Source: Carcharhinus amblyrhynchos (lineage: Eukaryota). Taken from it: a stretch of 64,000 bases of DNA. The stretch lies in contig OZ336881.1 in the NCBI GenBank assembly GCA_965287045.1, positions 45,818,001 through 45,882,000 of the forward strand, given 5' to 3'. This document shows positions 39,001-45,000 of this stretch, piece by piece (the first letter of the stretch is position 1; each line of letters starts with the position of its first letter). A program made the position numbers.

Positions 39001-42000
39001 GTAATGTAATTGCTTTTAAGTCACATTTGTTGTTGAGCTTTTGAATTCCTTGAGATTAATAACCAGTAATTAGATGAACTGTCTAAGTCTAAGAATGCCA
39101 TGTCTAAGTTTCAAAACAAAAGTAGATTGCTTTCATCCTTGTTCATATATGTATGCATGTTTGCGATGTGTATACACTTTATCATGTATTATTCAGTAAC
39201 AAGAAATGGAAAGCAATTGTGAATAAGTTATATGCCATCTGAACATGAGGTGAAGCTGTGTGCCAAAATCTATCACAAATTATAAGTGTCATCACATGCT
39301 AACTGTCCTTTACTATTCCTTCATGTGCTGTAGGAACTCAATGTTAGCACTGAGATATTAACAATGACCAGCAGATGGCATTGCACTCATTTAAATTGTA
39401 TCATAGTAGCTACAGTTCTGCTTTTATCCCTGAGGTACACATAGAATTAATAACCATGAAGACAGTCATACAAAATACTTAACCTTTTATTCCTTGCAAT
39501 CTAATGCTGCAGTAAGTTCACAAAATGATACCTTTGAAAATTCTGCTTGACTCAAGTATGTTACTTATTTGCTTATAAAAATATGAGTCAGTAAGATTCT
39601 GTTGCTGCTGTAACCAGTTGGCACTTATGTTGGCAAAAGTATGCTGCTCTTCTAAGATGTACATATGTCAGCACATTTTATAAATATTATTGATTTCCCA
39701 GTTTCATTTTCCATGATCCTTTGAGCATAAATTGGAACCCAGGAAAGGAAATAACACAGAATTCAGCATCATCACTACAGAGCTATTATTATTGAACACA
39801 GAAACAACTTCTAATTCTTCCCTTGGCCACCAGTTAGACTAGCTGAGTCCATGAATACAATGTGCACAGTCATAGGCGTGCACCCAATTCATTCCATGTT
39901 CTTGAATAATTTGGAGTTGAATGTTAAATGCAAGTATATACTTCTCTAAATAGTGAACTAACTGATCTTAACTGGAAAATATTGCACTATCTTATGTTGT
40001 GAAGTAAAAGATATGCTTTGTCTCAGATGCTTGGTAGGTTTGTGATGAAACAATGCAACTATAATTGCCTCATTTAATTTTGTATGTGTGCCATTTGTGT
40101 TAATGTATAACATAATAAAAACATACGCATGATTTCACTAGAAATAGTGGAGAGAATCTGCTCCTCCCTCCAAAGTTAGTGGTACTACTGTACAGTGAAT
40201 GGATTCAATGCCTGAATGTGCACTGTTTAGTTAAATGTTCATTGCTTTAACTTGTTATGTTTTATCTTAGAATGATGTCACATAGTTTGCATTGTTTGTT
40301 ACAAATCAATATACCAATTAAAAATGTAGGCATTAATATCTCTGTTAAAATAGAGGACAAATAAATATAGTTTAAAGAAATCAGGAGAATGAAAACCCAT
40401 GAGTCACAATGCCAGTGCTTAAACTTCTTAGAATTTCAGGGGTCAATTGGAGGGCACAACACATGTAAAGTTCTCATGTATCCATTCATTGTTCATATGC
40501 AGAATAACTGCTGACATTAACTAAAATTTGAAGCCTGAATGATATGCACAGTTGAATGAAGTGGGTAATGATGTTAAGTGTACTAATCTGTGTGAAGAGA
40601 GCTCACACCAAATGAATGCTAAAGGTAAAGGACACCCACAAGCTGGCTCCCAGGCCTGTGGAATATTTTCAGCAATTTCTGCTTTTTAAAAAAAGGTTTC
40701 CAACATCTTAGGTATTTTGCTTCTGCAGCAAACATAAAGCTACTTGAGTAATCTGGAATGTTGCAGTTGGAGAGTGGGCAAATAGTGAGTGGAACCAATT
40801 TCATCAATCCTGCAAGCATGCAGGGACTGAGGCGTTTCTTACCCAAACAGTGCAAAATGAAAGGGAATCTGGGGGGAAATGATCCCAAATGCTAAATAAT
40901 GTGCAAAGTATGGTGCATTTTAAGCCAATTTTCTGAAAAAAACTACACTTGTAACAAGAAAAGGATTAGAACTGTAATTTTACCAGATGCAATGATTAAT
41001 GTTGAATATCAGAACAAATGTGAAATATCACTGAAATATATAAATGAATAAACCATGAGATTTCCTAATATATTAGTGATTTCTGTTTAACATATATCAG
41101 CAAGTTTTCTATCTTCCCTTTAGTGATCTGTTTACAGGACACGGCTATGGCTAGTCACGTTTGCCTTATAATTACTAGAATAAACTGTGATTTACCAGTG
41201 AATTCCATGCTCAGAATTGCACTGAATTACTGTCAGTCAGTGAAAGGACTGATTGGTTCATTGTGCGTGCGTGTTGTGTGTGTGAGTGTGCGTCGGAAGT
41301 AGTTTCATTTAATTATATCCTAGATACATTTATGGTAAGACCTGTCACTTGTAGCGAAGCACAGTATTTGTATTTAGATAGCATCTAATGCGTGCACTCA
41401 AAATTTGTTTTTCCATTCAGGTCTGTGGAGATGTCCATGGACCAACAGCGCAAACTTTGTATTCCCTCCGATTCTAAGATCCAGGCTTCAATTAAATAAT
41501 GAGCCACTTAGTTGTGTTTATGTTGTCAGTGGTCCTAACTATATCTTGCTTTATATTACTGGTGTCCCTTTCAACTCTACAGCAGTTGCTGTAATGCTCC
41601 AAAGTTTTACATGATCTTGACTCAACTTCATGTTCCACATCTGGTCTATTATTATAAAAAACTGGTTGCTCTCAAAGATATTGACTGTTTTTAACTTCTT
41701 CCCATTGCTATTGAATCTCTCCATCGAACCTTTATGCTCTCACTCTTTACAATAATGTCCTAACTAGCCTCTCAGTTCCACCTGACATCCATCATTTGTT
41801 GCCCATAATCTCACATCCACTATTCCCATGTTTATATCATATTCCCAAATTGTCTCTGTGGAAACATGTTTATAGGAATTTCCCTCCCAGGAGGCTGAAC
41901 ATTCTGCCAAACTATGCTCAACTTGCAACAGGTAATGTTTTGATTATTTCAGGACAAACTGAATCTTGATCTGTGAAATGAATGTTTGCATAAGTTGATA

Positions 42001-45000
42001 AATCTTTGAAATTCAATCTGGCAGTGATGTTGAGTAGTGCAATAAAGCATTGTGCATTGCAGTTCAATACCCCCAACTCTCAGTAGAGGAGAAGCATCTT
42101 CAAAAGGAAACCAAAGCTAAATCAGAGACTACTGAGAGTTGGGGGTATTGAACTGCAATGCACAATAATGCTTCTGTAGGCTTTTAAAGGAAAAACTTAC
42201 AGCAGAGGTCCAACACAAGTCACTCATCTGCATTTTTGGCCCACAAGCCCAGAAGAGGAGAAAATCAGAAGGAAGGTCAGCGATAATATCATTGAATTAT
42301 AACTTGTGGCTACAAGTTTTACATTATAATCCAAGTTTAAGCAAAAACTGAAACTGGCACCTTCATGTTTAAAAACTGTGGTTCATCTCTCCCTATTTAA
42401 ACACTATATTCACAAATAGAGAGGAAGGCCAATGTCAGACAAAGTTTGCTAAACATTTACAACCAGAGATGTCCCAACACAACAACCTCAATTTTAACTT
42501 GGAGTGAGTAGCCTGGGAGGGAAATTCCTATAAACATGTTTCCACAGAGACAATTTGGGAATATGATATAAACATGGGAATAGTGGATGTGAAATTATGG
42601 GCAATAAATGATGGATGTCAGGTGGAACTGAGAGGCTAGTTAGGACATTATTGTAAAGAGTGAGACCATAAAGGTTCGACGGAGAGATTCAGCTTTGGTT
42701 TCCTTGGGAAGATGCTTCTCCTCTACTGAGAGTTGGGGGTATTGAACTGCAATGCACAATGCTTTATTGCACTACTCAACATCACTGCCAGATTGAATTT
42801 CAAAGATTTATCAACTTACACAAACATTCATTTCACAGATCAAGATTCAGTTTGTCCTGAAATAATCAAAACATTACGGGTTGCAAGTTGAGCATAGTTT
42901 GGCAGAATGTTCCGCCTTCTGATCAACTAATAGGCCAACATTGTATAGCAATGTATTGCGTAATATCTATATCTATATCTGTGTTCATGGAATGATTCTT
43001 GAACATGTACCTTTTCTTTAAAATGTGATTTGGGAAATAATACACTGCTGTGCAACATAATTATGAAAACAACCCTAATGCAATCAGTTTGCAAAACAAT
43101 ACAAAAGGAATTGTGTTAGTTGAGGGAACATTCCAGACATTGGATATTGTATGTGGAATGAGCTATTAAAATTATAATCAGGGGTCAGGATTAATCAGTG
43201 AAATGTTATGTACATAAAAATGGGTGATTATAAACAAAGATAGGAAAGATCAACTGCAGATTAGGTCCATTAACAAGAAAAAAGTATTTTACCATCATAC
43301 TGAAAATTCCTCTTAATGGAGATGAAATTGTTCCTTCAACACACCCAGTTATATGCTGGCTGTAAATTATACACCAGATGTTGTTCCTTCCATCAGTGCT
43401 TTCACCCCCAGGAAGACATTCATGAGCCTAAGACTCGTATTGTTCGGAATGCCTTTATCCATCTTGTATCAGTATAGTTGTTACTCGTGTCATCTTCTTG
43501 CAGTTTTTTTCTTCATTCACAGGATGTGGGAATTGCTGGCTAGGATAGCATTTGTTGCTTAATTGCCCTTGAGAAAGTGGTATTGAGCTGACTTATTGAA
43601 CCACAGAGGTCCATATCATGTAGGTACACCCATGGAGCTGTTAGGAAGGCAGTTCCAGGAATTTGACCCAACAACAGTGAAGGAACGGTGATGATTGTCA
43701 AGTTAGAATGCTATGCATCTTGGAGGGGAACTTGCAGGTGGTGATGTTCCTATATCTGCTACCCTTGTCCTTCTAGGTGGTAGAGGTCATGGGTTTGGAA
43801 TATGATGTTAAGGGAGCCTTGGTGAGTTGCTGCTGTGCATCTTGTAGATTGTACATACTAATGTCACTTTGTACATGGTGAAAAGGGAATGAATTTTAAA
43901 TTGGTGGATGGGTTGGCAATCAAGCAGGCTGCTTTGTCCTAGATGAGTTTTTTGAGTGTTGTTGAAACTGAAACTTCCCCATTGTGGAGAGTATTCAATC
44001 ACACATCTGTAGATGATGGGCAATTTTTGGGGAGTCAGAAGGTGAGTTACTCATTAAAGAATTCCCAGCTTCTGACCTGTCGTTGTAGCTGCAGATTTAT
44101 ATGCTGACCCAGTTCAGTTTCTGGTTGGTGGTGACCCTGCAGGATGTTGACAGTTAGGGATTCAGCAATGATAATGTCAATAAGTGTCAAAGAGAGATGG
44201 TTAGATTCTCCCTTGTTGTAGATGGTCATTCCCTGGCATTTGTGTGATACTCGTGTTAATTGCTCCTTTTCAGTCTAGGCTTGAGTGTTGTACAGGCCTT
44301 GCTGCTTATGGACACAGATTGCTTCACTATCCGAGGAGTCACAAGTAATGCTGAACATTGTGCAACATTAGTGAAAATGCCCATTTCTGACCTTATGATA
44401 AAGGGAAGGCCATTGATGAAGCAATGGAGATTGTTGGGCCCAGGAGACTACACTGAGAAACCTCTGTGATAATGTTCTGGAACCAGGATAATTGACTTCC
44501 AATGGCCACAATCATCTTCCTTTATGTTAGGTATGACTCCAAGCATTGAAGAGTTCAGAACTTCCATTTGGCTGTCATGGTAATGCATCTTTTATTTTAC
44601 ATGAACAATACGATATCAATGATATGTTTTAATTGCCACTATGCTTACAGCTGGTTAAGAAATCCAGGGAGGAAAACTTTGTTCATATAGTACCATTTTG
44701 CTACTCAGACAACAATCAATTCCCTGAGATGAGACAGTATCATGGGCTATCGCCTGTAGATTTGAAACCCAAGCAGTTGCACAGGTAAACTCACTATCCC
44801 AAAAGGGAAAAAAACAGTATGGAGTGCTTAGGGGAGAAGAAAAGGAGACGATGCAGAATATTGTGCTACAGTCATAACTAGGGTGGAGGGAAAGATCAGC
44901 TTAACATAAGGTAGATTGGCCAATACTCCTGTGTTAGCTGAATAGCTGGAGATTCGTGTAAGCAGCGAGAGGTAAATATAATACCTCTTGCCCCCTGGCC

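What the first reader, a model, noticed from the sequence alone, without database searches (positions are those of the whole stretch)
41713..42917. Circularly permuted inverted duplication (A-B ... A'-B'): possible re-integrated DNA circle
Seen: the 406-bp block 42512-42917 recurs inverted about 400 bp upstream, but in permuted order. A plain inversion would give A-B...B'-A'. The A|B junction (cccagg|aggc) joins the two outer ends of the downstream block, which share short microhomology (GCCT at 42511 and 42914). The upstream copy starts with tgaatc and ends with taaatc, a slight terminal redundancy. By eye there are about 4 mismatches in A and 7 in B, so the event is fairly recent. Inference: either a ~400-bp eccDNA/microDNA circle was reopened and reinserted, or there were multiple template switches (FoSTeS/MMBIR). 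In pre-mRNA it offers two long competing duplexes in pseudoknot order, which are potential ADAR or Dicer substrates.
Basis: partly seen in the sequence, partly recalled or inferred. Interest (0 to 1): 0.75.

Follow-up and report, generated by a model that had tools for sequence, protein, structure and literature searches.

The report
Small inversion flanked by inverted duplications
The interleaved inverted repeats in this neurexin intron are real, but they look like the ordinary scar of a small inversion that copied both of its breakpoints, so no DNA circle is needed.

Summary
A (41712-41891) and B (41888-42123) recur as reverse complements A' (42512-42691; 176 of 180 identical) and B' (42686-42921; 227 of 236), in the order A-B...A'-B', with no indels. 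Neither has another copy in the 64-kb window.

The circle inference is not needed. [quoted passage not shown] This class is known as staggered-break inversions in Drosophila, as "dupINVdup" complex variants, and as event type 3-1-4-2 of the four-point template-switch model.

That reading needs only two new junctions, A|B and A'|B'. Both show microhomology: 3-4 bases and 5 of 6 bases. A reinserted circle needs at least three junctions and a landing 0.4 kb from its source.

Without an outgroup I could not show that the 388-bp spacer is inverted, and the composition tests were inconclusive. Circle reinsertion and multi-switch insertion therefore stay open at low probability.

The locus lies in an intron of a neurexin-1-alpha-like gene on the + strand. 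This is a new instance of a known kind, and interest is low.

The parts
41712..41891 (+). A: left duplicated breakpoint segment. Under the best model this copy is in its ancestral position and orientation.
   Evidence: 180 nt, 176 identical to the reverse complement of 42512-42691
41888..41891 (.). J1: new junction A|B. These 4 nt are homologous both to the start of A' and to the end of B' (microhomology of 3-4 nt).
   Evidence: The two alignments overlap here; one of the 4 positions is a mismatch in the B pair.
41888..42123 (+). B: inverted copy of the right breakpoint segment B'
   Evidence: 236 nt, 227 identical to the reverse complement of 42686-42921
42049..42166 (.). Perfect 38-bp hairpin with arms 42049-42086 and 42129-42166 and a 42-nt loop. 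It spans the B|S boundary. The right arm is a third copy of 42723-42760.
   Evidence: RNA fold -72.8 kcal/mol; only sub-threshold miRNA-like Rfam matches (best 41.2 bits against a gathering score of 74)
42124..42511 (.). S: 388-bp spacer, single copy apart from the 38-nt arm. The best model predicts that it is inverted relative to the ancestor.
   Evidence: No similarity to A/B or to the flanks beyond chance. The inversion itself is inferred and not shown (inconclusive).
42512..42691 (-). A': inverted copy of A
42686..42691 (.). J2: new junction A'|B'. These 6 nt are homologous both to the start of A (6 of 6) and to the end of B (5 of 6).
   Evidence: The alignments overlap here; mismatch at 42690/42119.
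42686..42921 (+). B': right duplicated breakpoint segment. Under the best model this copy is in its ancestral position and orientation.

Best explanation
This is a micro 'dupINVdup': one local rearrangement of an ancestral stretch of about 0.8 kb, L-A-M-Q-R. The block A-M-Q was re-copied in reverse orientation between A and Q, giving L-A | Q'-M'-A' | Q-R. Here B = Q', S = M' and B' = Q. The most likely route is a single replication template switch-and-return. The nascent strand left the template at the right edge of A. It re-annealed through 3-4 nt of microhomology on the complementary strand at the right edge of Q. It then copied back through Q, M and A, and returned through a 5-of-6 microhomology to the left edge of Q. 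This is event type 3-1-4-2 of the four-point model. Two staggered double-strand breaks, filled in and end-joined, would give the same product. The net result is +416 bp, an inverted 388-bp spacer, and two interleaved pairs of long inverted repeats in an intron of a neurexin-1-alpha-like gene. Shown: the repeat geometry, the two abutting junctions with microhomology, and the lack of other copies in the window. Inferred: the inversion of S, the single-event origin, and the replicative route. The 38-bp hairpin across the B|S boundary either predates the event or is a small extra switch made during the same synthesis.
For: (1) The order and orientation A-B-S-A'-B' are confirmed, and A abuts B and A' abuts B' directly, with 4-nt and 6-nt overlaps of homology. 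(2) This topology is the published product of an inversion with duplicated breakpoints. Ranz et al. 2007 (PMC1885836, passages read) report inverted duplications at 17 of 29 Drosophila inversions, six with both breakpoints duplicated, with a median duplication of 321 bp in D. yakuba. The resolved dupINVdup in PMC6286558 runs forward to the end of the first duplicated segment, then inverted from the far end of the second back to the start of the first, then forward from the start of the second. [quoted passage not shown] (3) Only two novel junctions are needed, and both carry microhomology, as reported for all eight junctions in PMC6286558. At J2 the derived copy carries A's version of the 6-mer and the upstream copy keeps the other version. 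A switch primed by A's end predicts this without any later mutation. (4) All four switch points lie within about 0.8 kb, which fits a fork-local process. (5) The flanks hold no remnant of a tandem dimer: in all 6 comparisons of L, S and R with the unit, 28 to 79 of 100 shuffles scored at least as high as the observed score. (6) The 13 differences are all substitutions, with no indels, and include a CA/TG pair expected from CpG decay in both copies. This argues for real, aged duplicates and against an assembly error.
Against: The defining prediction, that S is inverted and that A and Q were single-copy in the ancestor, could not be tested. No genome of this or a related species was searchable. 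Strand-composition tests do not discriminate. S alone has a T-A skew of -0.167, in the lowest 2-3% of windows, which mildly favours inversion. Over the whole 0.8-kb ancestral block the three candidate ancestors lie at z = +1.47, -1.87 and -1.40. The 5-nt stretch and 38-nt fold-back copy right after B look like the untidy templated insertions seen at rearrangement junctions. That would fit a model in which B|S is a junction, meaning the upstream copy was inserted. Under my model it must be pre-existing or an extra switch. Type 3-1-4-2 made up only 1% of the 794 short events in the human-chimp survey. Clustering of mismatches near the junctions is not robust: P = 0.05-0.23 for single mismatches and 0.04-0.14 for merged events, depending on zone width.
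Confidence: 0.62

Rival explanations
1. Circle reinsertion. One 406-bp block was excised or copied as a microDNA-size circle closed by microhomology. It was reopened at another point and inserted, inverted, about 0.4 kb away.
For: Each block is one 406-bp unit plus 4-6 nt, and the two are circular permutations of each other. No tandem-dimer remnant flanks either block, which is the false-positive check of Takahashi & Innan 2020 (PMC7188851, text read; my check is). That paper reports 3 strong eccDNA-mediated duplications among human segmental duplications longer than 1 kb, so the mechanism has precedent. The 5-nt filler and 38-nt templated copy at the right end of the upstream block would fit an untidy insertion junction.
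Against: It needs at least three junctions (circle closure plus two insertion ends) against two. It gives no reason for landing 0.4 kb from the source. The permutation is equally predicted by dupINVdup, so it carries no weight of its own. No target-site signature was found beyond 4-6 nt of microhomology.
Confidence: 0.1
2. Insertional multi-template-switch (FoSTeS/MMBIR with three or more switches). One block is ancestral. The other was synthesised from it in two pieces, A then B, and S was never inverted.
For: Microhomology is present at every junction this model needs. With the upstream block as ancestor, these are GCCT at departure and return (42511-42514, 42914-42917) and the 5-of-6 6-mer at the internal jump. 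Three tandem double substitutions among 13 differences could reflect an error-prone polymerase. That such replicative repair is error-prone is seen here only as a cited title in the reference list of PMC6286558.
Against: It needs one more switch than the 3-1-4-2 event. It also needs the second piece to end exactly where the first began. One of the three double substitutions (CA/TG) is better explained by CpG decay.
Confidence: 0.12
3. The unit is a piece of a repeat family: a satellite or (AB)n array, or a transposable element with a circular or tandem intermediate. Alternatively the pattern arose in several steps (tandem duplication, inverted duplication, deletions).
For: This would explain the permutation trivially. 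The window does hold other repeats, including LINE fragments with an RVT_1 ORF at 35416-36744.
Against: There is no other copy of A or B in 64 kb and no tandem array at the locus. Rfam finds no ribozyme, tRNA or other family there. No dimer remnant sits in the flanks. The spacer is 388 bp, and no stop-to-stop frame of 90 aa or more lies within the locus. The DIRS arrangement of terminal and internal repeats is side by side (L...L'R'...R; PMC7192593), not interleaved. Two chunks of an array that are each one unit plus 4-6 nt would be a coincidence.
Confidence: 0.1
4. Assembly artefact, such as a chimeric or fold-back read.
For: Not testable here. Inverted structures are a known artefact type (recalled, not from a call).
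Against: The copies differ at 13 of 416 sites, all substitutions and no indels, with a CpG-decay pattern. An artefactual copy should be near-identical and would more likely be a plain palindrome.
Confidence: 0.04

Closest known systems
Inversions with inverted duplications at both breakpoints (staggered-break model; Ranz et al. 2007, PMC1885836)
   Same: Same topology: two ancestrally unique segments, each present twice in inverted orientation at the two ends of an inverted segment. The duplication sizes here (180 and 236 bp) are close to the reported median of 321 bp.
   Different: Those inversions span large chromosomal segments. Here the uniquely inverted part is only 388 bp, shorter than the two duplications together. 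Inversion of the spacer is not demonstrated here.
dupINVdup complex structural variants (Brand et al. 2015, title seen only in reference lists; resolved cases in PMC6286558 and the Chlamydomonas v6 preprint 10.1101/2022.06.16.496473)
   Same: The same junction order (forward, inverted across both duplicated segments, forward) and microhomology of at least 3 bp at the junctions.
   Different: The published cases seen are kb to hundreds of kb. This one is about 0.8 kb ancestrally. It is fixed in an assembly and has about 3% divergence between copies, so it is old and not de novo.
Four-point template-switch event type 3-1-4-2 (Loytynoja & Goldman 2017, PMC5453318)
   Same: One switch-and-return whose reverse-copied fragment overlaps both the leaving and the return point. 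[quoted passage not shown]
   Different: I saw no lengths for those events. The two linked example loci span roughly 100 bp, and the authors explicitly did not model long-range switches. Here the copied fragment is about 800 nt.
eccDNA-mediated duplication (Takahashi & Innan 2020, PMC7188851; the cattle and yeast cases cited there)
   Same: Paralogous blocks with swapped segment order and no flanking dimer remnant.
   Different: In those cases the copies lie at independent locations and in the same relative direction. Here they are 0.4 kb apart and inverted, and a two-junction local event explains them.

Membership tests
dupINVdup / inversion flanked by inverted duplications | Two segments, each present twice in opposite orientation, interleaved as A-C'...A'-C | tested here: met
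dupINVdup / inversion flanked by inverted duplications | Exactly two novel junctions, each joining an end of one duplicated segment to an end of the other with nothing between | tested here: met
   A|B at 41888-41891 and A'|B' at 42686-42691 abut with 4-nt and 6-nt overlaps
dupINVdup / inversion flanked by inverted duplications | The segment between the duplications is inverted relative to the ancestral arrangement | tested here: inconclusive
   The only proxy available was strand composition. S has a T-A skew of -0.167, in the lowest 2-3% of windows. The whole-block comparison does not discriminate. An outgroup is needed.
dupINVdup / inversion flanked by inverted duplications | Each duplicated segment is single-copy in the ancestor or outgroup | not testable with these tools
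   No eukaryote genome collection was available.
Replicative (FoSTeS/MMBIR, four-point 3-1-4-2) origin | Microhomology at both junctions, seen as short inverted repeats in the inferred ancestor | tested here: met
   3-4 nt at J1 and 5 of 6 nt at J2. Microhomology-mediated end joining after breaks would also fit.
eccDNA-mediated duplication | Swapped order of segments between two paralogous blocks, with no flanking remnant of a tandem dimer | tested here: met
   The feature is not specific here, because dupINVdup predicts the same.
eccDNA-mediated duplication | An empty recipient site and an intact donor in an outgroup | not testable with these tools
   No related genome was available.
DIRS-like tyrosine-recombinase retrotransposon | Inverted terminal repeats plus an internal complementary region arranged L...L'R'...R, with RT/YR ORFs inside | tested here: not met
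   The repeats are interleaved, not side by side (against PMC7192593). Only 388 bp lie between the blocks. No stop-to-stop frame of 90 aa or more lies within 41712-42921.
Satellite / (AB)n tandem repeat or other repeat family | Further copies, or head-to-tail arrays of the unit | tested here: inconclusive
   None in the 64-kb window. The rest of the genome could not be searched.
Ribozyme-bearing circular-RNA retroelement (retrozyme-like) | A self-cleaving ribozyme motif in the unit | tested here: not met
   No Rfam family reached its gathering score in the window. None of the 8 matches at E<=10 in 41300-43300 is a ribozyme.
microRNA precursor (for the 38-bp hairpin) | A match to a curated family at its gathering score | tested here: not met
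   The best match is MIR4245 at 41.2 bits against 74. A perfect hairpin would attract such scores anyway.

The most novel reading that the evidence does not exclude
The upstream or downstream block is a germline re-integration of a microDNA-size (406-bp) circle. It closed by microhomology and re-entered the chromosome 0.4 kb from its source in inverted orientation. This would be a sub-kb counterpart of the eccDNA-mediated duplications so far reported for segments longer than 1 kb.
Probability: 0.1. Interest if true: 0.6.

Novelty: new member of a known kind. Interest (0 to 1): 0.2.

Why it matters
The main value is as a caution. An interleaved, 'circularly permuted' pair of inverted repeats is the normal footprint of an inversion with duplicated breakpoints, or of a single template switch-and-return. 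It should not be read as evidence of a DNA circle unless an outgroup shows which arrangement is ancestral.

If the polarity were confirmed, the locus would be a clean sub-kilobase example linking two scales. One is the short four-point template-switch events. The other is the kb-to-Mb dupINVdup variants and breakpoint duplications of Drosophila inversions.

A side effect is that the event placed 180-bp and 236-bp inverted repeats in a neurexin intron. These could form long double-stranded RNA, but that is untested.

Tried and rejected
- Ribozyme or circular-RNA retroelement: Rfam found nothing at gathering scores in the whole window. At E<=10 the locus gave 8 weak matches. Five are miRNA models drawn by the hairpin, and none is a ribozyme or tRNA.
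- Tandem repeat: TRF listed 48 rows for the window, none over A, B, A' or B'.
- Other copies: none in the window.
- Tandem-dimer remnant: in all 6 comparisons of L, S and R with the unit in either orientation, 28 to 79 of 100 shuffles scored at least as high as the observed score. The 6 flank-to-flank comparisons were also within chance (15 to 95 of 100).
- Polarity from strand composition: inconclusive.
- Junction-proximal mutation clustering: not robust. 7 of 13 mismatches lie within 30 nt of a junction (P = 0.05). For 20-nt and 40-nt zones P = 0.23 and 0.19. For merged events P = 0.04-0.14.
- DIRS-like architecture: rejected on repeat order.
- MITE reading of the 38-bp hairpin: by eye I saw no target-site duplication beside it. 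No formal test was done.
- Brand et al. 2015 (PMC4571023) is not held in the library, so the class definition rests on papers that cite and apply it.
- The genome contigs, phage, plasmid and E. coli collections were not used, because by their descriptions they hold no animal genomes.
- Genome-wide copy number, the orthologous locus, reads and RNA data all stayed unchecked. No supplementary files were seen.
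Full report
**What is there.** I read 41400-43300 and compared the region with itself and with the whole window.
- A (41712-41891) is the reverse complement of A' (42512-42691): 176 of 180 identical, E 9e-84.
- B (41888-42123) is the reverse complement of B' (42686-42921): 227 of 236 identical, E 4e-107.
- There are no gaps.
- The order along the + strand is A, B, a 388-bp spacer S (42124-42511), A', B'.
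- The two homologies overlap by 4 nt at the A|B boundary (41888-41891) and by 6 nt at the A'|B' boundary (42686-42691). In the 6-nt overlap, the end of B matches 5 of 6.
- Nothing else in the 64-kb window resembles A or B (at word size 9 and E<=1e-3). TRF finds no array at the locus.

**Context.** Three ORF-like exons on the + strand carry Laminin_G_2 or EGF matches: 8430-8855, 14884-15180 and 33918-34268. The first matches neurexin-1-alpha chains in the PDB at E 3e-87.
- The locus therefore sits in the intron downstream of an EGF exon of a neurexin-1-alpha-like gene, transcribed left to right.
- Exons were searched one at a time. I built and searched no joined (spliced) model.
- The species was not determined, and nothing made me take the contig for human.
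- LINE-like fragments lie nearby, with RVT_1 in the ORF at 35416-36744 on the minus strand. They are unrelated to A and B.

**What the geometry means.** That holds only for an inverted copy of a whole block.
- Take an ancestral stretch L-A-M-Q-R. Suppose the block A-M-Q is re-copied in reverse between A and Q. The product is L-A | Q'-M'-A' | Q-R.
- With B = Q', S = M' and B' = Q, this is exactly A-B-S-A'-B'. Only two junctions are new: A|B and A'|B'.
- This structure has been described three times over:
  - Ranz et al. 2007 (PMC1885836, passages read) found inverted duplications of unique sequence at 17 of 29 Drosophila inversions. Six had both breakpoints duplicated, and the median duplication was 321 bp in D. 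yakuba. They explained them by staggered breaks, fill-in and end joining.
  - Human complex variants of the 'dupINVdup' class have the same junction order. The resolved case in PMC6286558 runs forward to the end of the first duplicated segment, then inverted from the far end of the second back to the start of the first, then forward from the start of the second. All eight junctions in that study had at least 3 bp of microhomology. A Chlamydomonas case is described in the same words.
- Mapping this locus onto that model: point 1 is the right edge of A, point 2 the right edge of Q, point 3 the left edge of A, and point 4 the left edge of Q.

**Why I prefer this to a circle.**
- It needs two junctions. 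A circle needs one closure and two insertion ends.
- Both junctions show microhomology. At J2 the downstream copy carries A's version of the 6-mer, while the upstream copy keeps the other version. A switch primed by A's end predicts this with no later mutation.
- All four switch points lie within about 0.8 kb, as expected for a fork-local event. A free circle has no reason to land 0.4 kb from its source. This last point is inference.
- The permutation is predicted by both models, so it does not favour the circle.
- The false-positive check of Takahashi & Innan 2020 for eccDNA-mediated duplications looks for remnants of a tandem dimer in the flanks (PMC7188851). It is clean here. That removes the tandem-dimer route, but it does not separate circle from dupINVdup.

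**What I could not show.** The decisive prediction is that S is inverted and that A and Q were single-copy in the ancestor.
- No animal genome was searchable, so I tried strand composition.
- S has a T-A skew of -0.167, in the lowest 2-3% of same-size windows. The window mean is +0.03. This mildly favours inversion.
- Over the whole 0.8-kb ancestral block, the three candidate ancestors fall at z = +1.47 (inversion), -1.87 (downstream block ancestral) and -1.40 (upstream block ancestral). None is excluded.
- Mismatches are somewhat concentrated near the junctions, but the result depends on the zone chosen. 7 of 13 lie within 30 nt (P = 0.05), with P = 0.23 and 0.19 for 20-nt and 40-nt zones. 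For merged events P = 0.04-0.14.
- The 5-nt stretch and 38-nt fold-back after B fit an untidy insertion junction at least as well as they fit a pre-existing hairpin. This is the main point in favour of the insertion models.

**Reality and age.** The 13 differences are all substitutions: 7 transitions and 6 transversions. Three are adjacent doubles.
- One double, CA against TG, is what independent CpG decay in each copy would give.
- The absence of indels and this pattern argue against an assembly artefact and for real divergence of about 3%.
- With vertebrate neutral rates, which I recall and did not compute, that means millions to tens of millions of years. This is not a very recent event.

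**Other readings tested.**
- Rfam gave no family at gathering score in the window. At E<=10 the locus gave eight weak matches. Five are miRNA models attracted by the hairpin (best 41.2 bits against a cut-off of 74), and none is a ribozyme or tRNA.
- The DIRS arrangement of terminal and internal repeats is side by side, not interleaved (PMC7192593). There is also no coding capacity between the blocks.

**Possible consequences (inferred).** As RNA, A:A' (-327 kcal/mol) and B:B' (-408 kcal/mol) are each very stable duplexes.
- They abut without linkers and are interleaved, so they cannot both form fully.
- The minimum-energy fold of 41700-42930 chose A:A' plus the local 38-bp hairpin, which occupies part of B.
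- Whether such duplexes are edited or diced is untested.

**Verdict.** The circle interpretation is not required. The best explanation is a small inversion with duplicated breakpoints: a dupINVdup, or a 3-1-4-2 template switch. This is a known kind of event, here at an unusually small scale.

Noticed in passing
window 41879-41937 (+): On the gene's sense strand, the A|B junction reads like a cassette exon. A 10-nt pyrimidine run plus AG ends at 41890, 41 nt follow (41891-41931), and then comes a strong donor-like 9-mer. Only 3 such acceptor-like sites and one such 9-mer occur on the + strand of the window. Only 2 acceptor/donor pairs 30-250 nt apart exist, and this is one of them. A 41-nt exon would shift the frame. 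No RNA evidence is available.
   Followed up: partly
window 42049-42166: A perfect 38-bp hairpin with a 42-nt loop (-72.8 kcal/mol as RNA). It draws only sub-threshold miRNA-family matches. The inferred return point of the template switch (42123/42124) lies in its loop.
   Followed up: partly
window 41930-41931, 41989-41990, 42102-42103: Three of the ten mutational differences between the copies are adjacent double substitutions (AG/CC, CA/TG, AA/CC). The CA/TG pair fits CpG decay. The other two are double transversions, which might reflect error-prone synthesis during the event.
   Followed up: partly
window 18220-18637: Another compact cluster of repeats. There is a 34-nt inverted pair (18220-18253 and 18604-18637, 97%), a self-complementary stretch at 18249-18427 (79%) holding a 43-bp tandem repeat (18275-18364), and a 184-bp piece (18422-18605) that is 96% identical to 35330-35513, beside the RVT_1 ORF.
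   Followed up: no
window 27827-28618 (-) and 35416-36744 (-): Two long open frames of one LINE-like family. The second (442 aa) matches RVT_1 at E 7e-28. The first (263 aa) has no Pfam match, but its DNA is 68-69% identical to that of the second.
   Followed up: no
window 59347-59494 and 60607-60750: A 148-nt inverted pair at 90.5% identity, about 1.1 kb apart. Not examined.
   Followed up: no
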